Origin: a virus | DNA length: 64,000 nt | Strand: one strand, 5' to 3' | Virus record (IMG/VR): IMGVR_UViG_3300045988_171260 | In this document: positions 1 to 13,487 of the stretch, in pieces | Numbering within the stretch: position 1 is the first letter of the stretch | Layout: each line of letters opens with the position of its first letter | Translations under genes and position numbers: made by a program | The notes under the pieces: generated by a model | What the model saw: only the letters and a program-made list of their open reading frames with translations | What the model was told of the DNA's origin: nothing | The model's database searches: none

Positions 1-1438
1 TATAATCTACTAAATAAATTGGTTCAGACGACATGAATTTAAGAACTTCATCTGTATAATCTAAAAACAAAAGTATAGATTCACCCCAAACTTCTTCATC
101 ATAGCCTTTTTGACCTAGATATAAACTCAAACCAAAGGCGTTTGGATGTCCTTCTGCAAACTCTACCCCTGGTGCGGATTCACACAAATTTTTAAAATTA
201 GCAACTCCACCTTTCTCATATCCTCTCGCAGAACCTTGATAAAAAATCTTATTTTCATCTTCAACTTGAGTTAAAATGCAACAAGGTCTTTGATACTTTG
301 ACATAAACTTATTCGCGATTAATCCAGCTATATTAGAATTAATCTCCCCTGGTTTAAGTAAAAACAATAGCACTTTGTGATCTAATAAATGCTTCTTTTC
401 AATTTTATCTTCTAAGAGTGTCATTCCTACATCTTGAGCTTTTGTCTGTCGATTTTTAACATTAGCTGCAGTTCTAATTGCTTGAAGCACTAATGGCTCT
501 TCTTCTCCTTCTTTATGTCCCCTTTTTGTAGAAGGTATTTTTTTTGAAGCTTCAAATTTAAGCATTGATTTAAAAACAATATGTTTTTCTTCTAAAGTAC
601 CGCTTCTAGCAATAGCATTAACAAAAGGTGCAATGTAAAACGCAGCTCCCATAGGAGTGATATTTTTTCCTAATGAATAACTATTTCTATCTGCTATATA
701 TACGATAAAAGGATTCTGGATATTTTCATTTTTAAATCCCTTTGTAATTAAATGCCTAGTCTCAAAAGAAGTCATACTCATCATATCTGCCATTAGACCT
801 AATGCAACTAAATCTACATAATCTTCGGCATAATTGGTTTTCATAATTAAATCTATATATCTGCAAAACTGCCATACAATACCAACACCAGATAGCTGTT
901 TATTTGGATAGTCACTTAATTGATTATTTATAACAATAGCATTTTCACTTATATGATCAGCTTTATGATGATCTAGAACTAAAACATCTATTCCTTTCTC
1001 GTTTAACATTTTATGTTCTTCAAAATTGTTACTTGAAGAATCTGGGCAAATAACTAAAGAATAGTCTTTTTCAAGAATTATATCTTTACAATCCTTTAAT
1101 CCATGTTGTTTTCCGCTATGAACTAACCATTCTACTTTTGAAAGAGTATATCGCGGAAAATGGTCATATAAAAAGTTAATTAAAACAGCACTGCTGGTAA
1201 AACCATCACAGTCAGAATCTACTATGATTAAAGTTTTTGTATTATTATAAATTGCTTTTAAAAGTACAGCAACGCCTTCTTTTAATACCTTTTCTCCTAA
1301 CTCTAAAGGCGAATAAATGTCATTATCAGTAGTATTCAAATAATGTTTAATATCTTCATGTTTGATTCCACGATTTGTTAAAATTTGCTCTATCGCGGAA
1401 TATTTTAAATTAACAGGTTTAATTAACTGGTATTTCAT
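1..1438 (-). CDS. RecJ-like DHH-family phosphoesterase / ssDNA exonuclease (N-terminal part; C-terminus runs off window start)
   Basis: Minus-strand frame open to position 1; ATG at 1438 preceded by GGAGG; translation MKYQLIKPVNLKYS... contains DHH motifs VIVDSDCDGFTSS and LDHH. Confidence 0.6.
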   Translation of the reverse strand, partial: MKYQLIKPVNLKYSAIEQILTNRGIKHEDIKHYLNTTDNDIYSPLELGEKVLKEGVAVLLKAIYNNTKTLIIVDSDCDGFTSSAVLINFLYDHFPRYTLSKVEWLVHSGKQHGLKDCKDIILEKDYSLVICPDSSSNNFEEHKMLNEKGIDVLVLDHHKADHISENAIVINNQLSDYPNKQLSGVGIVWQFCRYIDLIMKTNYAEDYVDLVALGLMADMMSMTSFETRHLITKGFKNENIQNPFIVYIADRNSYSLGKNITPMGAAFYIAPFVNAIARSGTLEEKHIVFKSMLKFEASKKIPSTKRGHKEGEEEPLVLQAIRTAANVKNRQTKAQDVGMTLLEDKIEKKHLLDHKVLLFLLKPGEINSNIAGLIANKFMSKYQRPCCILTQVEDENKIFYQGSARGYEKGGVANFKNLCESAPGVEFAEGHPNAFGLSLYLGQKGYDEEVWGESILLFLDYTDEVLKFMSSEPIYLVDY

Positions 1439-1440
1439 TT

Positions 1441-1520
1441 AATTTCCTCCAAAGTAATATTTTTTTTACATTGAGGAGATTTAATTTCCTCCAAAGTAAT
1501 ATTTTTTTTACATTAGGGAC
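1441..1520. repeat. ~40-bp tandem duplication of the RBS/leader region
   Basis: aatttcctccaaagtaatattttttttacattgaggagat occurs twice in tandem; second copy ends ...ttagggaca. Confidence 0.7.
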
Positions 1521-1665
1521 AATTAATATATTTTTCATAATAAACTAGCATGATGCCCAAACAGTCTGATTTTGTTTTTACATCTTCTTCTTCATAACTA
1601 AATAAACATCCACATTCCTTACATTCTTGAATTTTTCTTGTTCCTTTTCTTATTATTTTAATCAT
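1513..1665 (-). CDS. small zinc-ribbon protein (likely start MIKIIRKG...)
   Basis: AAGGAGAG RBS then ATG at 1665; CxxC...C...C pattern (ECKECGC...CP). Confidence 0.35.
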   Translation of the reverse strand: MIKIIRKGTRKIQECKECGCLFSYEEEDVKTKSDCLGIMLVYYEKYINCP

Positions 1666-1675
1666 AATACTCTCC

Positions 1676-2107
1676 TTATAAATAACAAACAAAAATTTCA
1701 ATATCTGTATTTTCAAATGTTTCAAATAATAACCGTTTAACATCATTCCAATTTAATTGGTCTAATCCACATCCGATTTTAGGCATTGCAATTTTTGTAA
1801 TATTTTCTTTTAAACAAATTTCTTTCATTTTAATTAACGCATTTTTAAGAGTTGCTAAAGTTGGTTTACTATAGTATCTTTCTTTAGTAATAAGATTAAA
1901 TACTTTTCCTTCTTTAAGACAATCTCCATTTGTCCAAGTTTGAAGATAATTAGGATATAATTGTTTCAATTTATTTTTCATATCAAACCTTTTATTAAAT
2001 TCAACAACTATTCCCTTACCCATCCCAAAATCCGCAGAAATGCAATGTGCTAAGTAATAATCACTATCCGTGCTAAACAAGTCTCTTTTTTGTTCTTTAT
2101 ATCTCAT
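1676..2107 (-). CDS. macro domain protein (ADP-ribose binding / hydrolase)
   Basis: 143 aa; AHCISADFGMGKGIV and IGCGLDQLNW resemble macro-domain glycine-rich ADP-ribose binding loops. Confidence 0.6.
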   Translation of the reverse strand: MRYKEQKRDLFSTDSDYYLAHCISADFGMGKGIVVEFNKRFDMKNKLKQLYPNYLQTWTNGDCLKEGKVFNLITKERYYSKPTLATLKNALIKMKEICLKENITKIAMPKIGCGLDQLNWNDVKRLLFETFENTDIEIFVCYL

Positions 2108-3240
2108 AATATAATTCTCCTTTTAAATAGTTCCATAAAAGTATCTTTTCCTTCATCTATTGGGCTTGATTTATATTGCAATAGGTCCCATCTATCAAAC
2201 ATAAAAGATATTTGAGTATAAGCACCATACTTATTATGAATATCTGTTAATTTCTTTGTCCAACGCTTCCATTCATCATCACCAATAGTAATAAACTGTT
2301 TATCAAAAGCAACAATAATTTCTTTTACCCCTAAAGATAATAATAATTTAACTTGATAAGTAATTAATGAACTTCCGCAACAAGCTACACTAATGTCATT
2401 TTCTTCTCCAAAATAGCTAGCATATAAAAGACAAGATTTTTCTCCTTCATAAACAATAACTTTTTTAATTATTTTTATATTATCTTTACTATTATTAAGA
2501 TTATATAGGTTAAAGCCTAGAGGGTGGTTATACATAACTCCATTTAGAATAGCTGGTCGATATTTTCCAAAATTTTCTTCTTCTTTAATTAAAGTTCTTT
2601 CTCTTATTCCAACTAATTGATTATTTATATCATAATGCGGAATTACTATACCTTGGTTTTTAGGATCATAGGCGATGCCCCTATGATCCATTACCTCCTT
2701 TTTTATTCCCTCTTGTTCCCAAGTTATTATTCGCGGACGAGGTAAATACTGTAAAATTTTATTATCAAAAATTCTTAATTCTACTCTTTGCTCTTGTTCA
2801 TCTTTGTTTATTTGCTCATAATTATTAAGAACTTCCCAATCTTTTAATTTCTCTTGAGTCTTTTGAAAATCAAATGTTTTTGGTGAATATCCATAATATA
2901 TTGCAACAAATTCAACAGCATCAAAAAGTTCCCATTCTCTATAACAAACTTTTCCTTCTTTGTTATAATAACTTTTTAAGTCCTTACTATTATTTTTTAT
3001 CTTTCTTACAAGTTCATATATATCAAAGCTAGTCCCACAATCAGTATAGCATCTAAATAATTTAGTATTGTCATAATAATATAATTTATAAGAGCCTTCT
3101 CCAGCATGATTATGACATATTGTTTTAGAAATAAAAAAACCACTTTCCATTCGCGGCTCTCCACCCAATTCCGCGACCAGATCAAAAACTTGCTCTATTG
3201 AAAGATTTAATTTTAATTCGTCTTTATCATACTTATACAA
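2104..3240 (-). CDS. DNA primase, DnaG-like
   Basis: 378 aa; CHC2 zinc finger (CHNHAGEG...CYTDCG) and TOPRIM-like VIVYEGEKS. Confidence 0.65.
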   Translation of the reverse strand: MYKYDKDELKLNLSIEQVFDLVAELGGEPRMESGFFISKTICHNHAGEGSYKLYYYDNTKLFRCYTDCGTSFDIYELVRKIKNNSKDLKSYYNKEGKVCYREWELFDAVEFVAIYYGYSPKTFDFQKTQEKLKDWEVLNNYEQINKDEQEQRVELRIFDNKILQYLPRPRIITWEQEGIKKEVMDHRGIAYDPKNQGIVIPHYDINNQLVGIRERTLIKEEENFGKYRPAILNGVMYNHPLGFNLYNLNNSKDNIKIIKKVIVYEGEKSCLLYASYFGEENDISVACCGSSLITYQVKLLLSLGVKEIIVAFDKQFITIGDDEWKRWTKKLTDIHNKYGAYTQISFMFDRWDLLQYKSSPIDEGKDTFMELFKRRIIL

Positions 3241-3269: not shown

Positions 3270-3803
3270 TTAAAAAGCACTAACATCAGCCTTTTTTTCT
3301 TCTTTTGGCTTAACAGTGATTTTTAAATCTTCAATAGGAATCAACTCATACTGGTAATTAGTTGCAAACATAGGAATAATTTTACAAGTACCTCTATTCG
3401 CCTTACACCACAATAAAATTCCTTTATATCTACCTCTACGATTTTTATAAACAGAAATTTTAATTAAAGGTATTTCAAACCCGCCTTGAGCTAAAACATT
3501 TTCTAAAGCCGTACGATCATCATTATCAACTTCAAGCATAATCATACCACAATCAATTTTATCCGCAATAGATTTAGCTCCTCTTAACAGATTCTGATCA
3601 TACTGTTGAGCTGTTATATAACTACTATTTAACTGAGTTGCCGTCATAATAAAAATGCCATACTGATTACACATATCTTTTAAACGAATTGAAATCATAA
3701 AAAGGATATTATCCTCTCTTAACCCTCTCACTCCAGTTTTAGATGAGACTTCACTTAAAATTTTCATACTTGTATGGATGTAATCGAAGCACGTAAGTCC
3801 TCT
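3270..3803 (-). CDS. replicative DNA helicase DnaB-like, exon 2 (C-terminal RecA-like half)
   Basis: Frame opens after TGA at 3807-3809; GLTCFDYIHTSM aligns to DnaB Walker B GLIMIDYLQLM; H3/H4-like RLKDMCNQYGIFIMTATQLN and RGAKSIADKIDCGMIML; 5-prime boundary uncertain by ~15 nt. Confidence 0.65.
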   Translation of the reverse strand, partial: RGLTCFDYIHTSMKILSEVSSKTGVRGLREDNILFMISIRLKDMCNQYGIFIMTATQLNSSYITAQQYDQNLLRGAKSIADKIDCGMIMLEVDNDDRTALENVLAQGGFEIPLIKISVYKNRRGRYKGILLWCKANRGTCKIIPMFATNYQYELIPIEDLKITVKPKEEKKADVSAF

Positions 3804-4811
3804 CTTTCAAGAGGCGTTGACTATCTCTTACTACGACAAAAGTCATAGGAAACCATTTCGAACTACGTACCAATAGTAGTCCTACTCCTCCGATCCGAGG
3901 ATAGTCGATACAGGTTCTTTAGACATTTTTCCAAGTTCTTCTTTTAATCAAATCTGCAACAGTTGCTTTTGAGATTCCATATTGTTTTGCTATTTTATCA
4001 TAGCTTTTCCCTGTTTTTTCTCTTTCTTCCCTAATTGCTTTTACAATTTCAACAGTAAGTTTGGTTTTTCTTCCCGTACCATCATTTGTTTTAAAAACTT
4101 CTGGCATTACAGTAGCATACCTTTTTCCAGTCCAGATATTTAAAAAAGATTGCCATTCTATTCTTCCTTCGTATTTTTCTTTAAATATTTTAGTTGGACT
4201 TTTTTGTTCTTTATAAGCAATTCGCAAAGAGATAACTTCTTCTTTCGTAAGAGCTGCATGAGACCATCTCATTTTTTCTTTAGTCTCTTCCTTATGCGGT
4301 CTCGCACAATTCTTTCCACCTTCTAAAACATTATAGCCATTAGGAACTTTTGAGTTAAATTTTAAAATATAATATTGTTCTAGCTTATTAAGTAAGTCAA
4401 AATCATTGTCATAAATTTCAGCTAATACTTCATAAGTAAAATTTTCATAACCATATTTTCTAAAAGCTCTATGAATTAATGATTCATAATCTTTATCAGA
4501 AGGATTGAAAGCAGAACTTCGATGCTGATTTTTTCTTTGCTCTGGGTTAATTGTTTGTCCTATATATTTTTTATTATTGATTTGATTAGTATAACAGTAA
4601 ACTATTGCCATTTTTAACTCCTTCCACACAATTTTCTATTTGTGTATGAAAGTAGTCAAAATAAATTTGATTATTTCTGTCCAAAGTTTCCCACGGGATT
4701 CCCATATATATTTCTACTTAGGGTTCCCCGTTAGCTATCTTAAACGATAACCCCAGTGGTAAGCTGGAAAAGTTTTACACAGTCCTTTAAACCCACAAAA
4801 GGGTTGAACAC
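3804..4811 (-). mobile_element. group I intron in helicase gene carrying a GIY-YIG homing endonuclease gene
   Basis: Splits DnaB-like ORF between Walker A and Walker B; GCUAACGGGGAA and AAUCCCGUGG core elements shared with two other introns in window; 3-prime AGAUAGUCAACGCC S-like element; exact junctions not resolved. Confidence 0.6.
3919..4629 (-). CDS. GIY-YIG homing endonuclease (intron-encoded)
   Basis: MAIVYCYTNQINNKKYIGQT...NGYNVLEGG classic GIY-YIG N-terminus; lies between helicase exons. Confidence 0.85.
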   Translation of the reverse strand: MWKELKMAIVYCYTNQINNKKYIGQTINPEQRKNQHRSSAFNPSDKDYESLIHRAFRKYGYENFTYEVLAEIYDNDFDLLNKLEQYYILKFNSKVPNGYNVLEGGKNCARPHKEETKEKMRWSHAALTKEEVISLRIAYKEQKSPTKIFKEKYEGRIEWQSFLNIWTGKRYATVMPEVFKTNDGTGRKTKLTVEIVKAIREEREKTGKSYDKIAKQYGISKATVADLIKRRTWKNV

Positions 4812-5837
4812 ATATTTAACATCATATTCTCTAACTCCACGTTTAATAGTATTCTCAATATCTTTTAAAGAAAAATCTGGTAATTGTTCTATATATAATG
4901 GACATCTCTTTAAAAGGTTTGCCGCATAAATAACACGTTCCCATTCTCCTGAATAGTATTCTCCAGAGATGATATGCTCTTCATCTACATCAGATAAAAA
5001 AGCGATCATCATAGTCTGAATTTCATCTTTCTCTTGTTCTGTTGAAATAAAGATTGTTGGTTCTTTAGTTCCATTTGGAATCCATTTTTCTTCTTTAGAA
5101 TCATAAATTTCATCGCACGCAATAGAACATGCATCCGCAATCATCGCTCGTGTTTTTCCTACTCCTGTTGCGGCTGATCGCAAATAAAATTTCTTTAATC
5201 TAGCCCCTCTAGTTACAGTATTTATCAAGGGTCCGAATAGAGGATATCCTGCTTCAGGTGTCTCTTTTAAGCGTTCGAGTAGCTCTAATGCTCCATTACC
5301 TGCCAGCTCCGCACCATTAGAAGCATCATCTACATACTTTAATCTTATATCAGTAATTTTTTTGTCAATGATCTCTGCAATATCTTCAATAGATGAATTA
5401 TCTAACCAATCCTCTTGAGCCTGCTTCTTCTTAACATCCATGATATTGTCTATATCATATAACCATGATAAATCCATTCCTATATTTTGATACATTCTTA
5501 GCAAAGTCATCTTTTTCATCCTGCTATAATAAAAATCAAAAGCAGCTAATTGTACTGATTTACTTAATTTTTGAAGATATTCTTGTCCCTTATTAGCTTT
5601 ATAAACTGCATAACTTTTTGGTCTTTGCTCTAAATAATCTTCTATCGCATTGATAGAAATTTCTTTAGCACCTAATTCATGTAAATTATATATAGACCCA
5701 AAAAGAATTTTATGAAATTCTTCTGTAAAATCCTCTTCATTAAAAAAATATTTTCCATCTTCATCTAGTAAATTAGGGTTTAAATAAATCCCTCCAATAA
5801 CTTGAATAATAGATGGAATGTCTACATATTTTCCCAC
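4812..5837 (-). CDS. DnaB-like helicase exon 1 (N-terminal domain, Walker A)
   Basis: 365-aa ORF; Walker A SAATGVGKT; last ~25 aa of ORF track product likely intron read-through. Confidence 0.65.
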
Positions 5838-5838
5838 T

Positions 5839-6354
5839 TCATTCTTCCTCCTTACTGTCTAAATTAAATAACCTTTTCATTTTTCGAATCGCGGAAGGAG
5901 GGGTGATTTCTATATATTTTATTTTAGGTTTATATTCTTCAATATTCTTATTTTCATTTGATAATTTCGCTAAATACAAGCTATAATAATATTGTAAAGC
6001 ATCCTTGTATATAAAAGGGATAATACCAATCCCGCCATTCGCTTTTTCTATTGAATTTCCTTTAATTTCATAAAACCAAATCAAAGATTTTAACATTCCA
6101 CTATAAGTATAATTATACATAGCTTTATAATCTTTAATTTGTTTTTTAATTCTAGCATTAATATAAGGTTCATCAAATAGTTTCATAATATATTGCTCTA
6201 ATTTTTCTAAGTCTTGCTCTTCCTGGCTTTTTTCTTTTTGATTCTTTTCCGCACATTCTTTATGTGCATATCTCCTTGCGGAAATTTGAGTTGTGTCTAT
6301 TTTGTCTCTATCAAAACGTTTTTTACAATAAACGCACGTTACTAAATGAGCCAT
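5839..6354 (-). CDS. zinc-ribbon protein (N-terminal module paralogous to that of AAA ATPase 33365..34567)
   Basis: VTCVYCKKRFDRD...RYAHKECAEK versus VKCYFCGERFDRD...RYAHERCAIK. Confidence 0.4.
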   Translation of the reverse strand: MAHLVTCVYCKKRFDRDKIDTTQISARRYAHKECAEKNQKEKSQEEQDLEKLEQYIMKLFDEPYINARIKKQIKDYKAMYNYTYSGMLKSLIWFYEIKGNSIEKANGGIGIIPFIYKDALQYYYSLYLAKLSNENKNIEEYKPKIKYIEITPPSAIRKMKRLFNLDSKEEE

Positions 6355-6420
6355 TTAAAACTCCTTAATTCTTTTATTATATTATAACATATTTTTTAAT
6401 AAATATCAAAAAAGTGTGGA

Positions 6421-7359
6421 CTAATCCACACTTTTTACTAATTCTTTCAAGTCAGTAACAATTAAATCTAAAGCCTCAACTTGATCTCTTGAACATTGAC
6501 TAACTTTCATACCTTTTCCTAAATATCTATCTGTAATTTGAACGATTCTAGGCTGCCAATATTCTTTAAATTCCTCATTAGATTTTTGCATGATTAAATC
6601 ATTTACAATAGTATTGAAACTATTCAATAATTCATCAAAATCTAATTCCGCTCTTGTGTCTTTATATAAGTTTGATCTTTCGTCTGTAAAATACTCACTT
6701 CCATCTTCTTCCATTTGTTTATCAATAGCCATGCCAATAGCATCAACTAAGCTTTGATAATTAAAATCAATGTAATCTGGAGTATATTTAAAACGAGAGC
6801 CTGCAATATATCTTGGCGTTCCACGCATAAATAATTTAGTTGAAGTTTTACCTTCTTTATCTTGAATACTACGAGAGTAGCCTATAATATCGCACATTCG
6901 AGATACAATCGCTCTAGGTTTATTTCCTAAGGTAGGAACGATCTGATTATACTCTTGACCTTGCTCATCTTTAAAAGTTTTATCTACTGAGTGACTAATT
7001 AAAACTAAACCGTAATCCATTTGAATAATAGAACGTAAACATTCATCATATTCTTTGGCGACTAGAGTATACCCTTTCCCAAAAGGAATATCACTAACAG
7101 AATCCACCCCAAAGCCGCCATCTGGTCTTTTTGCATTGGCACAAATATACTTTTCACACAAGTCATATGCGATATCTGCTGTATCCAGAATAATCGTTTC
7201 AAACTGTTCTTTTACTTTTTCATCTTTTAATTGTCTCAGCACTTTTCTAAATTCCGCCCAAGTATTAATTGGCTGAGCCATTGCTCCAGGAATCGCGTTG
7301 TATCCTTTCTCAAAAGCCAGTAACAGGTGGCGGGGAAACTTGGTTGCGATCGTCGTTTT
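6421..7359 (-). CDS. AAA_24/Sak4-like RecA-fold ATPase, exon 2
   Basis: Begins KTTIATKF..., which completes Walker A when joined to exon 1; IILD Walker-B-like and LVLISH. Confidence 0.6.
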   Translation of the reverse strand, partial: KTTIATKFPRHLLLAFEKGYNAIPGAMAQPINTWAEFRKVLRQLKDEKVKEQFETIILDTADIAYDLCEKYICANAKRPDGGFGVDSVSDIPFGKGYTLVAKEYDECLRSIIQMDYGLVLISHSVDKTFKDEQGQEYNQIVPTLGNKPRAIVSRMCDIIGYSRSIQDKEGKTSTKLFMRGTPRYIAGSRFKYTPDYIDFNYQSLVDAIGMAIDKQMEEDGSEYFTDERSNLYKDTRAELDFDELLNSFNTIVNDLIMQKSNEEFKEYWQPRIVQITDRYLGKGMKVSQCSRDQVEALDLIVTDLKELVKSVD

Positions 7360-8352
7360 CATATATTATATAATATAATACATCAGACTATATCTTCAAA
7401 TATTTATAAAGGAATATCAGAAAAAACAAAACCTTTTAATTTACGAATACCTTTTAAATATCGGCAAATAGATGAAGGTGCAACTCCAAAAGCTTTAGCA
7501 CACTCTTTTTGTGAATTATAAGAGTCAATAAAATTACCATTATTATCATATACATAAACTATTTTCTTGTTTGAATTACTCCAACAGTTGATCTTATCTT
7601 TTTTATACGATTTAAACTGATATTGTTTATAATGCTGCTGTTGTTCTGTTATACATCTCCATATACTAGTGTAATCCAAATTAAGCTTTTGTGCAGCTTC
7701 ATAACCATTTACAAAAGACTGAATGTAATTGCCACTTAAATCATATTGATGACATTCTTTCATTTCATGTTGTTGTAAATTACTAGTGTAACTATGACGC
7801 ATATTCTCTAATGCTGTTGACCACTCTAAATTATCTATATTATTATTTAATTTATTTCCATCTATATGATTAACTTGCAATTCATCCATCTCTTCACAAG
7901 GTTTAAATGCTTTCATAACCAATCTATGAACTGAGCAATTCTTATCTATTCGATAACGTAAATGCACCATACGATAACCATTATTAGTAACTGATCCTCC
8001 TAATAAGGTTTTAGTTGAATCATTACGCACATTACCATAATTAGATACACTATAAAAAGTTTCTTGACCGTTAATTAAAATTTTTTTCCAAATTTCTTGT
8101 TTTTCCATAATTATTCCTCCTAAATACCTACGGGTATTTCGATTATAAAATCTACGGTTATAAAACCTAGTCGTTGAACCTTTGTCTCCGTGAGACACTT
8201 GGCTGCGGATTGGAACTACAATAAACGTTTTACTATACCAAGCACATTACTACTTGCCATTATAATATCGCTATTATAACTTAGTCTTTATTGATTATAT
8301 TCTATCCCCGCAATTTCCCCATATTATCGTGGCAAAAATTCTCTCTCTATTC
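7360..8352 (-). mobile_element. group I intron interrupting the Walker A codons of the ATPase gene; carries HNH endonuclease ORF
   Basis: Exon 1 ends GGU (U) at 8353, intron ends G at 7360; intron has AAAUUGCGGGGA (P), AAUCCGCAGCC (Q), GUUCAACGACUAG (R), AAGAUAUAGUC (S) elements. Confidence 0.7.
7404..8198 (-). CDS. HNH homing endonuclease (intron-encoded)
   Basis: 264 aa; HRLVMKAF...VNHIDGNKLNNNIDNLEW...ENMRH HNH motif. Confidence 0.75.
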   Translation of the reverse strand: MSHGDKGSTTRFYNRRFYNRNTRRYLGGIIMEKQEIWKKILINGQETFYSVSNYGNVRNDSTKTLLGGSVTNNGYRMVHLRYRIDKNCSVHRLVMKAFKPCEEMDELQVNHIDGNKLNNNIDNLEWSTALENMRHSYTSNLQQHEMKECHQYDLSGNYIQSFVNGYEAAQKLNLDYTSIWRCITEQQQHYKQYQFKSYKKDKINCWSNSNKKIVYVYDNNGNFIDSYNSQKECAKAFGVAPSSICRYLKGIRKLKGFVFSDIPL

Positions 8353-8445
8353 ACCACTTTTAGGCTCTCCATAGAAGAATACACTGTATCCTCTTAAGTC
8401 TCTTGATACTTGATGCGGTTTAATGTTAAGTAAATCAATTCCCAT
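8353..8445 (-). CDS. AAA_24/Sak4-like ATPase, exon 1
   Basis: AGAGGAAAG RBS then ATG at 8445; MGIDLLNIKPHQVSRDLRGYSVFFYGEPKSG then in-frame E, stop; splice restores GEPKSGKTT. Confidence 0.6.
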
Positions 8446-8513
8446 AATTATCTTTCCTCTAACTTTCTTTATTTAATTTATTATTTATTATTTGCCATTA
8501 TTAAGTTAAATAA

Positions 8514-8534
8514 ATTGGGAGCTAAGCTCCCAAT
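8514..8534 (-). terminator. rho-independent terminator hairpin
   Basis: attgggagctaagctcccaat perfect hairpin just downstream of stop of 8537..9487. Confidence 0.5.
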
Positions 8535-8536
8535 CA

Positions 8537-9487
8537 TTAAAAATTAAAACCGCCATTGCTTACTGAAACAGTTGAAGCTTTAGGAGAAGAAGAATTACCA
8601 TTAGCAGCTTTCTGAGCTAAGTATTCCTCTCTTCTCTTCTTAACCTCAGCAAGATGAACCTCTCTATTCTGCATAGCCTGAGTAACTTCTTCCGCGGTTA
8701 AAACATTCTCATCTCCAAAATCATATGGCACAAGGGATACTCCAATAATCTCCCATTCTTTTGATTTCTTCTCATAGCTTTTTACTGCTACTTCACCGCC
8801 AAAAGCTGATTCTTCTTTCTGTTCTACTACAATAGTTCTGCAATTAATTCTTCCCCACACTTTTGTAAATAAAGGTTCTGAAGAAGAAAAATCTAAATTC
8901 TCAAAATACTTAATACCTTCTGGATTTTTTAATACAAACTCTACTGGTAAAATATCATTTCTAAAATTAAAAACTGCCCCTCTGATTGTTAAGTAATCAT
9001 TTAAAATACCTTTTTCCTCATCTGCTTCCACTCTATTCATAGAAGTCATAAGCATATCTGTTGTAAAGGTATTTCTTTCATTTTCTTTACATAAATTACT
9101 AACAATAGTAACAAATCCACCCTCATTCACTTTCTGTGATACTAAAGTGTCTTCATTAACATAGAAATCATTTAAAGCAAGAGCAGTATCAATTTTTACT
9201 TTCGTTGCCTCATCTTTTCCGTCTGTAATCCATGCTTTTCCTTCATCAATAATTTTCTTCAAAGCTGTATAAGTAGCGTTTTTCTTACCAGCTTTTGTTG
9301 TTTCTGTCACGTATGTAAAGTGTACTTCTACAATATTCATACCCTCTTCATCTACAGCTACACTTAATGTACCTGAAATGAATTCTTTTCCATAATTACT
9401 TGACTGCTGATTTTGAACTGTTTTAATTGTCAATTCATGCTCATATACTCTGCCCTCGATATGTTCTGTATTAATTGCTTTTTTCAT
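8537..9487 (-). CDS. hypothetical protein (possible ssDNA-binding / recombination-associated)
   Basis: 316-aa ORF adjacent to RecA-fold ATPase; no diagnostic motif recognised. Confidence 0.3.
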   Translation of the reverse strand: MKKAINTEHIEGRVYEHELTIKTVQNQQSSNYGKEFISGTLSVAVDEEGMNIVEVHFTYVTETTKAGKKNATYTALKKIIDEGKAWITDGKDEATKVKIDTALALNDFYVNEDTLVSQKVNEGGFVTIVSNLCKENERNTFTTDMLMTSMNRVEADEEKGILNDYLTIRGAVFNFRNDILPVEFVLKNPEGIKYFENLDFSSSEPLFTKVWGRINCRTIVVEQKEESAFGGEVAVKSYEKKSKEWEIIGVSLVPYDFGDENVLTAEEVTQAMQNREVHLAEVKKRREEYLAQKAANGNSSSPKASTVSVSNGGFNF

Positions 9488-9571
9488 CTATTTTCTCCTA
9501 CTTTTATTTTTTTTTATTCAAAATCTTTATATAATAATTATATCAAAAATTTTAAACTTTGTCAATCTATA

Positions 9572-9949
9572 CTAATCTATCTGTTTATTTCTTCCTTCAT
9601 CAGTTAAACTATAAGTTACTGGATCTTTACCAACTTTTTCAACAAAACCATTTGCAATAATTTTTCTCATTGAACCAGAAACTGAACGAGATGACATAAA
9701 AAGCCCCTCTCCAATTTCTTTTGAAGTAAAAAGGTTATTATATTTATCTTCATTAGATTGCATATATTTTAAAATCTTTGAGCCATTCTCTGTCATTTCA
9801 CTATTGTTAGGGCTTTTCTTATCACTTAAAAACTGACTCCAAAAATTTTTAATATCTTCCCAATCTTCCCCGCATTGTTCTACATATATATCTTCTCTTT
9901 CAAAAATCTCTGATTGAATAAAATTTATAAATTTTTCTTTTTTTGTCAT
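9572..9949 (-). CDS. winged-helix DNA-binding protein (one of three paralogs)
   Basis: SRSVSGSMRKIIANGFVEKVG...YSLTDEG shared with 11789..12064 and 59974..60357. Confidence 0.45.
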   Translation of the reverse strand: MTKKEKFINFIQSEIFEREDIYVEQCGEDWEDIKNFWSQFLSDKKSPNNSEMTENGSKILKYMQSNEDKYNNLFTSKEIGEGLFMSSRSVSGSMRKIIANGFVEKVGKDPVTYSLTDEGRNKQID

Positions 9950-10033
9950 AATTTTTTATATAACCTTTCTTTCTCTTTTATTATTATACAATAATTATAA
10001 CATTTATTTTAATAAAATTCAAATAAGTATATT

Positions 10034-10714
10034 TTATTTAAGAGGTTTTCTTCCGCAACTTCTCTCGCCTTCGTTACAATAACCAAGATACTCACATTTA
10101 GGACAAAAATAATTTGTAACTAAATATTCCCATTCTTCAGAATATTGTTTCAAAGCTTTAATTAAATCATTAAATAATTCACGATATTCCCAATAGGCAC
10201 AAGTACACATTCTTTGATGAGACATATCTATTAAAGTTCTTAAATTAATTTTACAAGAAACAACAGTAGTCATTCCAAGCGGAAGTCCATTCGCAGTGTC
10301 CTCATGTGGGATACTATAAACTTGCTCTAAAGTTAATAGCGTTTCATTTATAATAGCCATTAATTCATCCCACAATAAACTAGCACCTTTTTCTTTTTTA
10401 ATACTATGCGGGGTAATGTATTTAAAATTATTCTTAGCGTAGTCTATATATCTAGTAGAAGCCTGAACCCTTGTAGGCATCCCGCCAATATGCGTATACC
10501 ATTCTCTAATGACTCTTGCAGAATATCCATCTAAAGTTAAATACACATCGGGAAATTCCCAAGTTCTCCCATGCCCACTTTTTAAGTTATGAATACCTCT
10601 TTTGTAATTTTTCTCTTTATTATCTATAGGAGCGTTATAACAAACTCCAGACATTTCTCCAATTAATGTAATTGGATCTTTAGTAGTTCTTTCGTTAATG
10701 ATAATTTGTCCCAT
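10034..10714 (-). CDS. ThyX-like flavin-dependent thymidylate synthase homolog with divergent active-site motif
   Basis: SGHGRTWEFPDVYLTL resembles ThyX SGHxSVxEH; RHR...S motif replaced by THIGGMPTRVQASTRY; C-terminal Cys cluster. Confidence 0.55.
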   Translation of the reverse strand: MGQIIINERTTKDPITLIGEMSGVCYNAPIDNKEKNYKRGIHNLKSGHGRTWEFPDVYLTLDGYSARVIREWYTHIGGMPTRVQASTRYIDYAKNNFKYITPHSIKKEKGASLLWDELMAIINETLLTLEQVYSIPHEDTANGLPLGMTTVVSCKINLRTLIDMSHQRMCTCAYWEYRELFNDLIKALKQYSEEWEYLVTNYFCPKCEYLGYCNEGERSCGRKPLK

Positions 10715-10737
10715 CTATTACTCCTTTATTTTTACTT

Positions 10738-11544
10738 TTATTTATTTCCAGAAGTGCTATTATAGCCATAAATATCACTTTGATACATTTGAATCCAAAA
10801 TTTTTCTTTTTCGTTTAATTCTGTTCTTGAACATTCTTCCATCAATTCAAAAGAAAAATTCCAAACACCATCTTGTTGCATTGCTTTATATAACTTATTT
10901 GTTGCGGAAGCATCTATTCCCAATCCGCATTTAACGTGCTGCTTAAATCTATCTTGAATATTAACGCTTTGTCCAATATAGCATTGTTTAGTTAATAAAT
11001 TTGTAATTTTATAGATTCCGCATTTAGTAGTAGTTCCTAATATCCTATTGCACATTTCAGTTGTTTGTTTTTGAAAATAAGTTGACCAAATAATTTTATT
11101 TAAAACAACAGGTTGATGAAAAGAAACTTTTATTTTATTTAATGCCATGATATCTGATAATTCATTATCTGTAATAGTTAATTTGTAAAAGTTAATTTCT
11201 TCTTCTTTTTCTCTTTCGCGGAGTTGAGCTTGAACGCCTGCACTTAATGATTCTTTTAATTTACATAAAGATTCAGTAATTTCTTTCTTCTCTTTATCAG
11301 TTTTGACTTTATATAAATCATATCTTAATTCCATATCTTCATATGCTTTTTCTAATTCTATAACATATTGTTCTTTTGCATATTTAATTTTATCTTTATA
11401 ACTATTATATTCTTTTAATTGATTTTCTTTAAAAATGTTTAATTGTTCCAATATATCATCTTTCTTTTGACAGAAAGATTTAAAAGCATCAGATTGTTGC
11501 TCTGTAAGTAAAGATAATTCTCTTTGCCTGCCTTTGATTTGCAT
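10738..11544 (-). CDS. coiled-coil protein with C-terminal GIY-YIG nuclease domain
   Basis: N-terminal ~170 aa Lys/Glu-rich; C-terminus GIYKITNLLTKQCYIGQSVNIQDRFKQH...YGYN; start ATG 11544 (ORF track uses TTG 11550). Confidence 0.55.
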   Translation of the reverse strand: MQIKGRQRELSLLTEQQSDAFKSFCQKKDDILEQLNIFKENQLKEYNSYKDKIKYAKEQYVIELEKAYEDMELRYDLYKVKTDKEKKEITESLCKLKESLSAGVQAQLREREKEEEINFYKLTITDNELSDIMALNKIKVSFHQPVVLNKIIWSTYFQKQTTEMCNRILGTTTKCGIYKITNLLTKQCYIGQSVNIQDRFKQHVKCGLGIDASATNKLYKAMQQDGVWNFSFELMEECSRTELNEKEKFWIQMYQSDIYGYNSTSGNK

Positions 11545-11788
11545 TATCAAATTACGTTTTTGAAAAGCTAAAGAATTTAATTCTTTTAATAAAGCTTCTT
11601 TTTCTTTCTCTTCCTTTTTATTATTATATATAATAGTATTTTTTGATTTTATTGTTAAATATATCCCATAAAATAAAAAAATAATACTAATAAATAAAAA
11701 GAATATTATATAAACAATATCGGTAGCCTCCTTAAATAAAAAGAATGGGTTAAACTAATAATTAGCTTAACCCTTTTAAAATTTATGA

Positions 11789-12064
11789 TTACTCAGCCTG
11801 TTCTGTTACGTCTGGATCGAAAGCACGACCTTCGTCGGTCAAGCGAATAAATTTAACTGCTTTATGAGTGCCGTCTTCAAGCTCAATCTCTGACGGAACT
11901 CTTTCCATTAAACCTTTTCTCTGAAAAGCAGAAGTTACAATACCATTTACACTTCTTACTTCGAGACCAGTTGCTTCTGCAATATCTGCCGCTGTTACAT
12001 TCTGTCCATCTACACTCTTTACATAATCAAATACTTTTCTTGAATTTTCTTTTAATGCTGCCAT
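11789..12064 (-). CDS. winged-helix DNA-binding protein (paralog)
   Basis: 91 aa; EVRSVNGIVTSAFQRKGLMERV...IRLTDEG. Confidence 0.45.
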   Translation of the reverse strand: MAALKENSRKVFDYVKSVDGQNVTAADIAEATGLEVRSVNGIVTSAFQRKGLMERVPSEIELEDGTHKAVKFIRLTDEGRAFDPDVTEQAE

Positions 12065-12136
12065 TTTTTTCTTTCTCCTTTAATTTTAAAACATAGTATA
12101 TTTTATTTTTATTATTAGATGATTTCATCTTATATT

Positions 12137-12180
12137 TTATATAAATATTATACCAAAAATTTTTTAATTTGTCAATAATT
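12137..12180 (-). promoter_or_regulatory. sigma-70-type promoter (TTGACA-N17-TATAAT)
   Basis: Minus strand reads ttgacaaattaaaaaatttttggtataat. Confidence 0.5.
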
Positions 12181-12346
12181 TATTTTTGGTTATATAATCA
12201 TCTATCATAAACATATCTTCTAAAGATAACGTTTTCGATATTTCTTGAATTTCTTTCATATTCTCTTGAACATTTTTACCCTTAGAAAGTTCTTGTTCCA
12301 TCTTCACTATTTTAAGTGCTAAATCTTTTATTTCTTTATTCTTCAT
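12164..12346 (-). CDS. small coiled-coil protein; possibly leaderless transcript
   Basis: 60 aa; -10 TATAAT at 12353-12358 only 6 nt upstream of ATG. Confidence 0.3.
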   Translation of the reverse strand: MKNKEIKDLALKIVKMEQELSKGKNVQENMKEIQEISKTLSLEDMFMIDDYITKNKLLTN

Positions 12347-12377
12347 ATTTATATTATATCAAAAATTTTTTAAAAAA

Positions 12378-13487
12378 TCAAAAAATGCTACTTACTGTGC
12401 AGTCTTTTGCATCTTTATCTTCTCTTAAGCCTTTCCAAAATCCATGTCTAATTGTCTTTTCTTTAGAATCTAACTCCATACATTGTATTTTTACTACATG
12501 ATTAAGATAATTTTTTGGATTCTTAGACATATCTTCTTTTAATTCATCAGAAATTCCAGAATGAATAGTACCTATATCAATAATAGTTCCCTTATCATCA
12601 TATGCCCCTATTTTTATTCTGGCATTATGCCAATTATAATAATAAGGTTTTGTCACTGGAATTATTTCTTTTCCCATCTTAAGAAGTTCTTTATAAGTCC
12701 CTTGCATCCTAATACCATTTTTATCAATACAAAAATCCCAAGAGTCTAATTCTTTTCCATAGTACTCCTTCGTAGGCTCCTCAAAACCTATAATGATAGC
12801 GTCTATAAAATCTACTTTTTTTGCTTTTAAATTACTATCTGGACGTTTTCCAGGTTGATATATCTCATTTTTCTTTTTTAGAACCATTCCCTCTTCGCCT
12901 GCGGATAAGGCATTTCCAACTCTTTCATATAAATTATCTTCCCATGCTTCCGCAAGTTCAAGAAAGTCATATTTTTTTAAATTATACTTTTTCCAAACTT
13001 CTTTTAATATATTATATCTAACCAAACTGCCAGTATTTAGTAAGTTATAACCATTATATATTAAAATATCGTGAATATAATAATGAATTAGTCCATATGA
13101 GCCGTTTTGTCTTTCTATTGCTTTACCAGCCAAACTTCCCATAATAGGCGTAACATTTTTAGAACTTCCTCCTGGATAATAAATTTCTCCAATTAAAACA
13201 GTCTTATCTGGTAAACACTCTAAAGCATTAACTATATGAGGAATATTGTCATGCTTCTCTGTCAGAAGCCCAGTCTTCTTACTTACTGTTCGCCCAAATA
13301 AATAACAATCTTCATTTTTAACAAATTGATAGAAAGCTCCATCTTTTTTAAGCTGACCAAAATATTCTCCGCTTGAACAAGCTTTCTTTAATTGCTCTTC
13401 TGTAGAAGAATGAATCAGCATAGGTTCAATCATCAAATCTTCTGCTCCTGGATATAAAGATTTAATTTTTTCTTTATTAAAAACCAA
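12378..13487 (-). CDS. ATP-dependent DNA ligase (could alternatively be an RNA ligase)
   Basis: 369 aa; motif I KKDGAF, EGMVLKK (motif IV/V), LKAKK and C-terminal OB-like region. Confidence 0.6.
   Translation of the reverse strand: MVFNKEKIKSLYPGAEDLMIEPMLIHSSTEEQLKKACSSGEYFGQLKKDGAFYQFVKNEDCYLFGRTVSKKTGLLTEKHDNIPHIVNALECLPDKTVLIGEIYYPGGSSKNVTPIMGSLAGKAIERQNGSYGLIHYYIHDILIYNGYNLLNTGSLVRYNILKEVWKKYNLKKYDFLELAEAWEDNLYERVGNALSAGEEGMVLKKKNEIYQPGKRPDSNLKAKKVDFIDAIIIGFEEPTKEYYGKELDSWDFCIDKNGIRMQGTYKELLKMGKEIIPVTKPYYYNWHNARIKIGAYDDKGTIIDIGTIHSGISDELKEDMSKNPKNYLNHVVKIQCMELDSKEKTIRHGFWKGLREDKDAKDCTVSSIF

What the first reader, a model, noticed from the sequence alone, without database searches (positions are those of the whole stretch)
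1676..2107. Macro domain and NADAR domain proteins: possible dual reversal of DNA ADP-ribosylation (anti-DarTG)
The window encodes a stand-alone macro domain (1676..2107) and a NADAR/YbiA-like protein (61230..61682). Macro domains such as DarG remove ADP-ribose from thymidine modified by DarT1. NADAR enzymes reverse guanine ADP-ribosylation by DarT2. A phage carrying both would be equipped against both DarT families, or against other ADP-ribosylating defences.
Basis: partly seen in the sequence, partly recalled or inferred. Interest (0 to 1): 0.6.

Follow-up and report, generated by a model that had tools for sequence, protein, structure and literature searches.

The report
Phage ADP-ribose erasers: macro plus NADAR
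A large SPbeta-like gut phage carries two intact stand-alone enzymes (a TARG1-type macro domain and a NADAR) of the kinds that other phages use to strip ADP-ribose off their DNA and escape DarTG defence, so this is a new example of a strategy published in 2025-2026, not a new mechanism.

Summary
Both ORFs are real, and both lie on the minus strand. The macro ORF (1676..2107, 143 aa) is a TARG1/OARD1-type macrodomain. It matches human TARG1 in the PDB at E=4e-26, and its model has pLDDT 96.8 and TM 0.87 to TARG1. The TARG1 Lys/Asp catalytic dyad is present as K75/D116. The NADAR ORF most likely starts at the ATG at 61673 (147 aa). It has every ADP-ribose-contacting and catalytic residue except one Tyr, which is Arg here. 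It is 44% identical (E=3e-41) to AdfN of phage Bas32, which neutralises DarT1 experimentally.

DarT2 modifies thymidine and is reversed by macro domains. DarT1 modifies guanosine and is reversed by NADAR.

The concept is already published as AdfN (NADAR) and AdfM (macro), and T4 carries both. What is specific to this phage:
- The macro is TARG1-like, not DarG2-like as the known AdfMs are.
- It is an accessory insertion between primase and a RecJ-like gene, and its start overlaps the primase stop.
- The NADAR subfamily has a conserved CxCxxC insert.
- The NADAR start overlaps the stop of a 66-aa basic four-Cys ORF.

Activity, substrate and host DarT content were not tested. Verdict: new member of a known kind, moderate interest.

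The parts
1676..2107 (-). Stand-alone TARG1/OARD1-type macrodomain, 143 aa. The putative catalytic Lys is K75 (LITK) and the Asp is D116 (GCGLD).
   Evidence: Sequence and family: PDB TARG1 E=4e-26, MtbDarG 3e-7. Pfam Macro is above its cutoff. PADLOC DarG matches at 2e-16 on the macro part only. Structure: AF2 model pLDDT 96.8. Foldseek TM is 0.87 to TARG1 and 0.80-0.84 to DarG macros. Conservation: K75 and D116 are invariant in 34 homologues. [LIV][LIV]TK occurs in 119/119 and G[CA]GLD in 118/119 full-length homologues.
61230..61673 (-). Stand-alone Glu-type NADAR (YbiA-core) protein, 147 aa from the ATG at 61673. The longest ORF reaches a TTG at 61682. It contains a WHD...CxCxxC insert.
   Evidence: Family: Pfam NADAR 8e-30. 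PDB YbiA 1e-19 and PnNADAR 8e-13. It is 44% identical, E=3e-41, to AdfN-Bas32. Structure: model pLDDT 95.7. TM is 0.84 to YbiA, 0.77 to PnNADAR and 0.42 to G. lovleyi DarG1. Residues: the counterparts of PnNADAR E43, K50, K75, R79, D86, W89, R93, E125, D130, W133 are E31, K38, K58, R62, D69, W70, K74, E105, D111, W114. This mapping comes from the alignment and the residue list in PMC11543638. Most are invariant in 36 homologues.
61673..61873 (-). 66-aa very basic ORF (pI 10.2) with four Cys. Its stop overlaps the NADAR start (TAATG). It may be an accessory or nucleic-acid-binding partner; this is inferred only.
   Evidence: The ORF is and the overlap. pI and Cys count are. A 65-66-aa ORF overlapping the NADAR start is present in related contigs L005-L011 and L120. 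There is no significant Pfam hit.
2104..3240 (-). SPbeta YorJ-type DNA primase. Its stop codon overlaps the macro start codon. This is context that places the macro in the replication operon.
   Evidence: PHROG 47 DNA primase at 2.8e-31. tblastn matches primases of SPbeta-like phages. The order helicase-primase-macro-small ORF-DHH/RecJ-helicase-PolIII alpha is conserved in relatives.
1513..1665 (-). Small CxxC-containing ORF directly downstream of the macro. It is 50 aa here and 62 aa in relatives. In this window it is truncated at a 42-bp tandem duplication.
   Evidence: Sequence. The alignment with L001 and L118 shows the 42-bp duplication and the early stop. The gene is present after the macro in L001-L004, L118 and L119.
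61060..61087 (-). Intrinsic-terminator-like hairpin about 140 nt downstream of the NADAR stop. It is the likely end of the transcription unit that contains the NADAR.
   Evidence: 10-bp stem, 4 GC pairs, T-run. This is a consensus match only.

Best explanation
The phage encodes two orphan, antitoxin-like ADP-ribosyl glycohydrolases. They most likely erase ADP-ribose that host ADP-ribosyltransferase defences (DarT-type or similar) place on phage nucleic acid.

NADAR. It cleaves the N-glycosidic ribose-base bond of ADP-ribosyl-guanine, the DarT1-type lesion. Because it is a Glu-type NADAR, it probably also acts on ADP-ribosyl-cytosine, on ssDNA and ssRNA. It would work like AdfN.

Macro. It is a TARG1-type macrodomain. 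It would use the Lys75/Asp116 dyad to remove ADP-ribose from thymine N3 in ssDNA, the DarT2-type lesion. It would work like DarG2, TARG1 or AdfM. It is made together with the primase, helicase and RecJ-like replication proteins, so it would act where ssDNA is exposed at the fork.

Shown here: the folds, the intact active sites, close homology of the NADAR to a validated AdfN, no DarT2 homologue or Pfam-detectable ART in the window, conservation within the phage family, and operon placement.

Inferred: the substrates, the in vivo role, and that the hosts deploy such toxins.
For: Macro:
- TARG1 E=4e-26 with K84/D125 aligned to K75/D116.
- Both residues are invariant in homologues.
- Model TM is 0.87 to TARG1 and 0.80-0.84 to DarG.
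- TARG1, DarG and SCO6735 all reverse DarT thymidine-ADPr. [quoted passage not shown]
- Phage macros AdfM of PhiKZ and T4 counter DarTG2 (PMC13309987; bioRxiv 10.1101/2025.11.20.689424).
- hhalign of our family against PhiKZ AdfM gives probability 92.7%.
- The macro is an accessory insertion between primase and the RecJ-like gene. Those two genes are contiguous in C. difficile phage LIBA2945. The macro start overlaps the primase stop.
- The 65%-identical homologues sit in other ~155-kb phage contigs among DNA methyltransferases and a microbial PARG.

NADAR:
- It is 44% identical to AdfN-Bas32. That protein neutralises DarT1 and rescues three phages from DarTG1 (PMC11825919).
- All ADPr-contacting and catalytic residues are kept except Y84, which is R67 here.
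- Glu-type NADARs remove G- and C-ADPr from ssDNA and ssRNA (PMC12945103).

Both genes:
- There is no DarT2 homologue in the window or next to any of 159 macro loci. Pfam finds no ART among the surveyed window ORFs.
- In an unrelated viral contig the same two subfamilies are adjacent, overlapping genes (L112).
- Both proteins are basic, pI about 8.9.
Against:
- The host is unknown. It is probably a gut member of the Clostridia. I could not establish that such hosts carry DarT1 or DarT2.
- TARG1-type macros also hydrolyse protein Glu/Asp-ADPr, O-acetyl-ADPr and phosphate-linked ADPr on nucleic acids. Thymidine specificity is therefore not implied.
- The macro is only distantly related to the validated AdfMs (23% identity to PhiKZ gp104). 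It has Ser where DarG/AdfM has the functionally important Asn.
- The NADAR passes the riboflavin-type HMM TIGR02464 more strongly than AdfN-Bas32 does.
- E. coli YbiA and T4 gp30.3 fail to rescue DarT1 toxicity in uninfected cells despite in vitro activity (PMC11125620). In vitro competence therefore does not guarantee counter-defence.
- The window also carries an RNA-repair set and a cREC domain. A comprehensive survey favoured soluble ADPr derivatives as targets of phage Macro and NADAR domains (PMC9503650).
Confidence: 0.5

Rival explanations
1. Both enzymes degrade soluble NAD-derived immune signals or toxins, not DNA adducts. Candidates are Thoeris-type cyclic ADPR isomers, His-ADPR, ADPr-1''-phosphate and ADPr>P. 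The effect would be to blunt TIR-, sirtuin- or ART-based host signalling.
For: [quoted passage not shown] - The NADAR lies in an early-type region of small unknown genes.
- A cREC cyclic-phosphate-processing domain lies 4.2 kb away.
- The relatives are SPbeta-like phages of Firmicutes. That Firmicutes commonly carry Thoeris is from my own knowledge.
Against: - I know of no experiment showing a TARG1-type macro or a NADAR cleaving these signals.
- Every phage NADAR and macro tested so far acts on DNA adducts (PMC11825919, PMC13309987, PMC11125620).
- The macro is embedded in the replication operon, not in an early anti-defence cluster.
Confidence: 0.18
2. The macro acts on proteins, as TARG1 does canonically. 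It would remove Glu/Asp-linked mono-ADP-ribose placed on phage or host proteins, for example replisome proteins. The ADP-ribose would come from a host ART or bacterial PARP-like defence, or from a phage-encoded ART. The NADAR would have an unrelated role.
For: - The full TARG1 Lys/Asp dyad is present. DarG keeps only the Lys (PMC9411070).
- The 65%-identical homologues co-reside with a microbial-type PARG in ~155-kb phage contigs. This recalls the eukaryotic PARG plus TARG1 division of labour.
- Bacterial PARP homologues are reported in clostridial species (reference list of PMC9967889).
Against: - Pfam detects no ART or PARG among the ORFs surveyed in this window.
- TARG1 itself also reverses DarT thymidine-ADPr (PMC9411070), so the dyad does not discriminate.
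- The adjacent NADAR-macro gene pair in L112 points to nucleic-acid base adducts as a shared theme.
Confidence: 0.15
3. The two enzymes clean up ADPr by-products of RNA repair. NAD-dependent removal of a 2'-phosphate would yield ADPr>P. cREC would open it to ADPr-1''P, the macro would dephosphorylate it, and the NADAR would process what remains. This would support the phage's tRNA-repair module and its 32 tRNA genes.
For: - The window encodes an RNA ligase (27865..29109), a PNK-like kinase (26555..27046), phosphoesterases, a cREC domain (56703..57026) and 32 tRNAs.
- PHROG 335 labels the macro family 'phosphatase'.
- Links between NADAR or Macro domains and RNA repair have been proposed (PMC9503650).
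Against: - Pfam found no KptA/Tpt1 or sirtuin in the window. The rest of the genome was not seen.
- A kinase, phosphoesterase and ligase set is the T4 type, which leaves no 2'-phosphate (established knowledge of T4 Pnkp/Rnl1).
- The macro lies 24 kb from the RNA-repair genes, inside the replication operon.
- Structurally it is TARG1-like (TM 0.87) and less Poa1p-like (TM 0.74).
Confidence: 0.1
4. The NADAR is a housekeeping YbiA-type N-glycosidase. It would detoxify reactive riboflavin-pathway intermediates and would have nothing to do with defence.
For: It scores 102 bits against TIGR02464, above the 73.7 cutoff. The best PDB hit is E. coli YbiA.
Against: - There are no riboflavin-pathway genes in the window.
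- 511 phage records carry such NADARs.
- The protein is closer to validated AdfN-Bas32 (122 bits, 44% identity) than to YbiA (74 bits).
- YbiA-type enzymes themselves de-ADP-ribosylate G and C (PMC12945103).
Confidence: 0.05

Closest known systems
AdfN (anti-DarT factor NADAR), especially AdfN-Bas32 of Escherichia phage IrisVonRoten (bas32_0066); also T4 gp30.3 and AdfN-Bas60
   Same: It is a phage-encoded, stand-alone NADAR with no DarT2 homologue and no Pfam-detectable ART in the window. It is 44% identical to AdfN-Bas32 over 146 residues. It has the same naked YbiA-core fold with no N-terminal extension, and the same catalytic Glu and Lys.
   Different: It has a CxCxxC insert that Bas32 and YbiA lack. 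Its start overlaps the stop of a 66-aa basic four-Cys ORF. It is Glu-type, whereas the T4-like AdfN has His at that position. It comes from a Firmicutes-type SPbeta-like phage. It is untested.
AdfM (anti-DarT factor macro): PhiKZ gp104 and T4 Tk.4
   Same: It is a phage-encoded, stand-alone macrodomain of the ALC1-like class, with the catalytic Lys conserved (FPTK in AdfM, LITK here). hhalign probability is 92.7%.
   Different: Identity is only 23%. AdfM is DarG2-like: 91 bits to MtbDarG, 138 bits to the NCBIfam DarG model, and no TARG1 hit. Ours is TARG1-like: 95 bits to TARG1 and 33 bits to MtbDarG. Ours has Ser24 where AdfM has N23 and DarG has N22, and it keeps the TARG1 Asp. Ours is basic (pI 8.9) while PhiKZ AdfM is acidic (pI 5.1). 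Ours sits in the replication operon.
Human TARG1/OARD1 (C6orf130)
   Same: It is the best sequence and structure match: E=4e-26, 41% identity in the structural alignment, TM 0.87. The size is similar (143 aa; TARG1 PDB chains are 146-160 aa). The K84/D125 dyad is conserved.
   Different: This one is viral or prokaryotic. The physiological substrate is unknown. TARG1 is a multi-substrate enzyme acting on protein Glu-ADPr, OAADPr, T-ADPr DNA and phosphate-ADPr on nucleic acids.
DarG antitoxins (DarG2 macro type; DarG1 NADAR type)
   Same: The two catalytic domain families are the same, and so are the predicted chemistries.
   Different: There is no adjacent darT. The macro lacks the C-terminal DarT-binding domain (55 bits against a cutoff of 250). 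The NADAR lacks the DarG1 N-terminal extension, has Glu instead of Asp, and has TM of only 0.42 to G. lovleyi DarG1.
E. coli YbiA / TIGR02464 riboflavin-intermediate N-glycosidase
   Same: The HMM score is above the cutoff, TM is 0.84, and the Glu in the last strand is present.
   Different: The context is a phage with no riboflavin genes. It has the extra Cys-cluster insert. It is closer to AdfN-Bas32 than to YbiA.

Membership tests
Macrodomain, ALC1-like class, TARG1-like subgroup | Macro fold most similar to TARG1 | tested here: met
   phmmer against the PDB gives TARG1 at 4e-26. The AF2 model has pLDDT 96.8. Foldseek gives TARG1 at TM 0.87, ahead of DarG at 0.80-0.84.
Macrodomain, ALC1-like class, TARG1-like subgroup | Catalytic Lys84/Asp125 dyad (Sharifi 2013, as cited in PMC9411070) | tested here: met
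   K75 (LITK) and D116 (GCGLD) align to K84 and D125. Both are invariant in 34 homologues.
AdfM (phage anti-DarT2 macro) | Phage-encoded stand-alone macro with no toxin partner | tested here: met
   The ORF is 143 aa and single-domain. No DarT2 homologue is found in the window or near 159 macro loci.
AdfM (phage anti-DarT2 macro) | DarG2-like sequence type, including the conserved Asn (PhiKZ N23 / TaqDarG N22) | tested here: not met
   The aligned position is Ser24. The NCBIfam DarG model scores 55 bits here against 138 bits for PhiKZ AdfM. Ours is TARG1-like.
AdfM (phage anti-DarT2 macro) | Removes DarT2 thymidine-ADPr and protects the phage from DarTG2 | not testable with these tools
   This needs biochemistry and plaque assays.
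DarG2 antitoxin | Macro domain plus C-terminal DarT-binding domain, encoded next to darT | tested here: not met
   The NCBIfam DarG model gives 55 bits against a cutoff of 250, covering only model positions 26-145 of 338. No darT is adjacent.
NADAR superfamily | NADAR fold and ADPr-binding/catalytic residues (PnNADAR E43, K50, K75, R79, D86, W89, R93, E125, D130, W133) | tested here: met
   Pfam gives 104.7 bits. The model has TM 0.84 to YbiA and 0.77 to PnNADAR. The residues map to E31, K38, K58, R62, D69, W70, K74, E105, D111 and W114. Only Y84 differs, as R67.
AdfN (phage anti-DarT1 NADAR) | Phage-encoded orphan NADAR homologous to a validated AdfN | tested here: met
   It is 44% identical, E=3e-41, to AdfN-Bas32. 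No ART is detected among neighbouring ORFs.
AdfN (phage anti-DarT1 NADAR) | Removes guanine-ADPr from DNA and rescues phage from DarTG1 | not testable with these tools
   This needs biochemistry and plaque assays.
DarG1 antitoxin (BC4488-type NADAR) | N-terminal extension, Asp at the catalytic position of the last strand, adjacency to darT1 | tested here: not met
   There is no extension (147 aa). The residue is Glu, E105. TM is 0.42 to G. lovleyi NADAR 8bat. No ART is adjacent.
YbiA / TIGR02464 riboflavin-intermediate N-glycosidase | HMM score above the curated cutoff, and Glu in the last strand | tested here: met
   102 bits against a cutoff of 73.7, and E105 is present. The model is not discriminating: AdfN-Bas32 scores 66 bits and UTK0009 scores 76.5 bits.
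YbiA / TIGR02464 riboflavin-intermediate N-glycosidase | Physiological link to riboflavin biosynthesis (fusion or neighbourhood with rib genes) | tested here: not met
   No rib genes are found in the window by the Pfam surveys.

The most novel reading that the evidence does not exclude
The TARG1-type macro may be an independent third recruitment of an ALC1-class macrodomain by phages, distinct from the DarG2-like AdfMs. It is wired into the replisome operon between primase and the RecJ-like gene, which would make it a replication-coupled remover of ADP-ribose from ssDNA. The NADAR may be a new two-part variant of AdfN. It is Glu-type, has a probable Zn-binding H+CxCxxC insert, and its start overlaps the stop of a basic four-Cys mini-protein. 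Its reach would extend beyond DarT1 to guanine and cytosine adducts on DNA and RNA. With the orphan Panacea antitoxin domain in the same window, the phage would carry a panel of stolen antitoxin modules.
Probability: 0.25. Interest if true: 0.55.

Novelty: new member of a known kind. Interest (0 to 1): 0.35.

Why it matters
Counter-defence against DarTG by enzymatic erasure of ADP-ribose has been shown only in phages of Gram-negative hosts: T4-like, T5-like and phi92-like phages, and chimalliviruses.

This locus suggests the same strategy in large SPbeta-like phages of gut Firmicutes. It would use a different macro subtype (TARG1-like) and a Cys-cluster NADAR subtype. About 2,300 database homologues were found for each protein.

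If confirmed, three things follow:
- The host range and the enzyme repertoire of this counter-defence class would both widen.
- It would imply that DNA- or RNA-targeting ADP-ribosyltransferases put real pressure on phages in the gut.
- It would supply compact (143-147 aa) base-specific ADP-ribose erasers as reagents.

It does not reveal a new principle.

Tried and rejected
1. Co-occurrence in IMG/VR. Pattern-based scans for each protein gave 66 macro loci and 33 NADAR loci with no shared contig. The method finds only close relatives, and IMG/VR lacks this phage family (best 66% and 78% identity). The result is uninformative. It did reveal L112, where NADAR and macro are adjacent.

2. Macro and NADAR on the same related long contigs. 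I looked up contigs for P0003, P0023, P0122, P0125 and P0132. The flank limit is 10 kb and the genes lie about 59 kb apart, so joint presence in relatives could not be shown directly.

3. Toxin adjacency. tblastn with P. aeruginosa DarT2 against 200 loci plus the window found nothing. Sensitivity is limited to DarT2-like sequences, and DarT1 was not queried.

4. A conserved partner gene of the macro family. Clustering the up- and downstream ORFs of 159 loci gave no universal neighbour, so I rejected a two-gene system for the macro.

5. Host identification. Cluster names gave no organism. The genome scan shows the macro family in Lachnospiraceae, Oscillospiraceae, Ruminococcus and Paenibacillus genomes, but at no more than 65% identity. 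The host stays unassigned. A literature query for DarTG in Firmicutes was badly posed and returned nothing useful.

6. Group I intron at the split DnaB gene. Rfam gave no hit at gathering thresholds.

7. Geometry of the Cys cluster.
Full report
OBSERVATION

Both ORFs exist, and both lie on the minus strand.

The macro ORF spans 1676..2107 (143 aa). It has a GGAG ribosome-binding site. Its ATG overlaps the stop codon of the upstream primase gene as ATGA. It passes the Pfam Macro threshold (26.2 bits against 22). More tellingly, it matches human TARG1/OARD1/C6orf130 in the PDB at E=4e-26 over residues 6-140.

The NADAR ORF is 61230..61682 when read as the longest ORF from a TTG. The AGGAGG site lies only 2 nt from that TTG and 11 nt from the ATG at 61673. 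That ATG overlaps the stop of the upstream gene as TAATG. Gene calls on related contigs use the 147-aa form. I therefore take 61230..61673 as the gene. It scores 104.7 bits on Pfam NADAR (cutoff 35.1). It matches E. coli YbiA at 1e-19 and the Phytophthora NADAR 8bau at 8e-13.

WHAT THE PHAGE IS

- The window has 31% GC. About 75 of 92 ORFs are on the minus strand.
- It carries 32 tRNA genes between 43.3 and 58.1 kb.
- It has no close relative among 50,697 deposited phage genomes.
- Near-identical macro and NADAR proteins occur on human-gut metagenomic contigs of 130-146 kb.
- The primase and its neighbours are of the SPbeta type (YorF, AAA_24, YorH, DnaB, YorJ-like primase, DHH/RecJ-like, helicase, PolIII alpha). 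The best cultured matches are C. difficile phages LIBA2945/LIBA6276 and the Staphylococcus and Bacillus SPbeta-like phages.
- The host is not identified.

THE MACRO PROTEIN

The alignment to TARG1 places K75 (LITK) on the catalytic Lys84 and D116 (GCGLD) on Asp125. Both are invariant in an alignment of 34 homologues. The two motifs occur in 119/119 and 118/119 full-length database homologues.

An AlphaFold2 model is very confident (pLDDT 96.8). Its best PDB matches are TARG1 (TM 0.87, 41% identity), then the DarG macrodomains of M. tuberculosis and T. aquaticus (TM 0.80-0.84), then BT1257 and Poa1p.

It is not a DarG antitoxin. The NCBIfam DarG model gives 55 bits against a cutoff of 250 and covers only the macro part.

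It is only a distant relative of the published phage anti-DarT2 macro AdfM of PhiKZ. Identity is 23% at E=1e-5, and hhalign probability is 92.7%. AdfM itself is DarG2-like: 91 bits to MtbDarG, 138 bits to the DarG model, and no TARG1 hit. Where DarG has N22 and AdfM has N23, our protein and TARG1 have Ser.

According to the literature, TARG1, DarG and SCO6735 all reverse DarT-made thymidine-ADPr on ssDNA. [quoted passage not shown] TARG1 also acts on protein Glu/Asp-ADPr, O-acyl-ADPr and phosphate-linked ADPr.

CONTEXT OF THE MACRO

In four close relatives and one 79%-identical relative the gene order is fixed: helicase, primase, macro, small CxxC ORF, DHH/RecJ-like exonuclease, helicase, PolIII alpha. 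In the related C. difficile phage LIBA2945, primase, recJ and dnaE abut with nothing between them. The macro, together with the small ORF, is therefore an accessory insertion into a conserved replication module, and it is co-expressed with that module.

About 2,300 homologues exist. The 60-66%-identical ones lie in other ~155-kb gut phage contigs among DNA methyltransferases and a microbial-type PARG. Others lie in chromosomes and MAGs of Lachnospiraceae, Oscillospiraceae, Ruminococcus and Paenibacillus.

Across 159 loci there is no DarT2 homologue nearby and no universally conserved neighbour. The family behaves as a mobile, stand-alone, orphan gene.

THE NADAR PROTEIN

I mapped the residues of the P. 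nicotianae NADAR-ADPr structure (PMC11543638) through the alignment. E43, K50, K75, R79, D86, W89, R93, E125, D130 and W133 correspond to E31, K38, K58, R62, D69, W70, K74, E105, D111 and W114 in 147-aa numbering. Only Y84 differs, as R67. Most of these residues are invariant in 36 homologues.

The model (pLDDT 95.7) is a bare YbiA core. TM is 0.84 to YbiA, 0.77 to PnNADAR and only 0.42 to the DarT1-associated G. lovleyi NADAR.

It has Glu at the position that separates three types: YbiA/NADAR (Glu), DarG1 (Asp) and T4-like phage NADARs (His). In recent work the Glu-type enzymes removed both G-ADPr and C-ADPr from ssDNA and ssRNA. The Asp and His types removed only G-ADPr (PMC12945103).

Most importantly, the protein is 44% identical (E=3e-41) to bas32_0066 of Escherichia phage IrisVonRoten. 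That protein is AdfN-Bas32. It neutralises DarT1 in E. coli and restores plating of RB69, T5 and Bas25 on DarTG1 cells, and it does not counter DarTG2 (PMC11825919).

The riboflavin-type HMM TIGR02464 is passed (102 bits against 73.7). The model does not discriminate, however. AdfN-Bas32 scores 66 bits and a T5-like Salmonella-phage homologue scores 76.5 bits. The window has no riboflavin genes.

A caution applies. E. coli YbiA and T4 gp30.3 are active in vitro but do not rescue DarT1 toxicity in uninfected cells (PMC11125620).

LINK BETWEEN THE TWO GENES

In this window they lie about 59 kb apart. In an unrelated IMG/VR contig (L112), a NADAR with the same Cys motif is directly followed by a TARG1-like macro with LVTK and GCGLD motifs, and the two genes overlap by 17 nt.

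Rhodococcus phage Grayson also has both genes. Co-occurrence of Macro and NADAR in DNA viruses above chance was already reported (PMC9503650).

COMPARISON WITH WHAT IS KNOWN

- AdfN, the NADAR type that acts against DarT1 guanosine adducts (PMC11825919).
- AdfM, the macro type that acts against DarT2 thymidine adducts. It is described for PhiKZ gp104 (PMC13309987) and T4 Tk.4 (bioRxiv 10.1101/2025.11.20.689424).

T4 carries both, so dual carriage has a precedent. The pairings of macro with thymidine and NADAR with guanine are right.

I file the NADAR as a probable AdfN-type enzyme. I file the macro as working like AdfM/DarG2 while belonging to the TARG1-like subgroup, not the DarG2-like one.

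RIVAL EXPLANATIONS

- Soluble ADPr-derived signals as targets. This is the view of PMC9503650.
- Protein de-ADP-ribosylation by the macro. The full TARG1 dyad and the PARG co-residence in sister phages point this way.
- Clean-up of RNA-repair by-products. The window has an RNA ligase, a PNK-like kinase, phosphoesterases and a cREC domain. It has no KptA or sirtuin, and the macro sits in the replication operon.
- A housekeeping riboflavin role for the NADAR.

None of these is excluded by computation. I give the nucleic-acid-adduct counter-defence reading about 0.5.

VERDICT

This is a new member of a known kind. Three features are locally new: a TARG1-type macro inserted in the replisome operon, a CxCxxC NADAR subtype, and a basic mini-ORF whose stop overlaps the NADAR start. 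Interest is about 0.35.

Noticed in passing
window 61230..61673 (residues H110, C117, C119, C122 of the 147-aa NADAR); alignment A4: The NADAR subfamily carries a WHD...G-x-C-x-C-x-x-C insert that E. coli YbiA, PnNADAR and AdfN-Bas32 lack. CxCxxC is present in 114 of 120 nearest homologues. The full-length homologues that lack it also have Gly in place of the His. This suggests a His+3Cys metal site. The NADAR papers I read do not mention it.
   Followed up: partly
window 61673..61873 (-): A 66-aa ORF with pI 10.2 and four Cys. Its stop overlaps the NADAR start (TAATG). A 65-66-aa ORF overlapping the NADAR start is present in all related contigs examined (L005-L011, L120). It could be an accessory factor. 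T4 AdfN is reported to need an unknown phage factor.
   Followed up: partly
L112 (IMGVR_UViG_3300001480_000544) 1383..2310: NADAR (169 aa, with the Cys motif) and a TARG1-like macro (144 aa) are adjacent, overlapping genes in an unrelated viral contig.
   Followed up: partly
window 56703..57026 (-): A cREC (cyclic-phosphate-processing receiver) domain protein, PF20274 at E=7.7e-22, sits inside the tRNA array. It is a third domain of the NAD/ADPr/RNA-end-processing repertoire in this window.
   Followed up: partly
window 45988..46419 (-): A stand-alone SocA/Panacea antitoxin-domain protein (PF13274, 1.3e-19) sits within the tRNA array. It is another orphan antitoxin-like gene in the same phage.
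   Followed up: no
window 26009..43207 (-): A large RNA-repair or vault-like module. It comprises:
- Metallophos_2 (26009..26545)
- PNK-like AAA_33 kinase (26555..27046)
- RNA ligase with PHA02142 OB domain (27865..29109)
- calcineurin-like phosphoesterases (29480..30283, 38578..39303)
- an 829-aa protein with Major Vault Protein shoulder and repeat domains (30749..33238)
- MoxR-type AAA (33365..34567)
- DUF7192 (34575..35414)
- Band-7/flotillin (35625..37190)
- Pol-beta nucleotidyltransferase with HTH (37514..38560)
- DUF2828/DUF7788 protein (41726..43207)
A vault-protein-like gene in a phage is unusual.
   Followed up: partly
window 43303..58088 (-): 32 tRNA genes lie in one minus-strand array, interspersed with small ORFs. 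Rfam adds a truncated tRNA-like match at 43492..43548.
   Followed up: partly
window 3270..5837 (-): The DnaB-type helicase is a single 514-aa gene in relatives. Here it is split into 4740..5837 (365 aa) and 3270..3767 (165 aa) by about 970 bp that carry a GIY-YIG/NUMOD homing-endonuclease ORF (3919..4629). Rfam finds no group I intron at gathering threshold. It may be a split gene or an unrecognised intron.
   Followed up: partly
window ~1440..1560 (-): A 42-bp tandem duplication lies at the 3' end of the small CxxC ORF downstream of the macro. It produces an early stop, giving 50 aa against 62 aa in relatives L001 and L118. It is either a real variant or an assembly artefact.
   Followed up: partly
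L012-L015 (gut metagenome contigs of 109-166 kb): Sister phages that carry the 65%-identical macro also encode a microbial-type PARG (PF10021) a few kb away, together with several DNA methyltransferases and an IS605 OrfB/Cas12f-like TnpB.
   Followed up: no
window 3919..4629, 44837..45511 and further ORFs in 3270..24801: There are many homing-endonuclease genes. GIY-YIG occurs in 4 ORFs of the first 25 kb, plus HNH_3 and NUMOD domains. The only DNA match to deposited phages is a 58-bp stretch (7820..7877) shared with HNH genes of Staphylococcus epidermidis phages.
   Followed up: no
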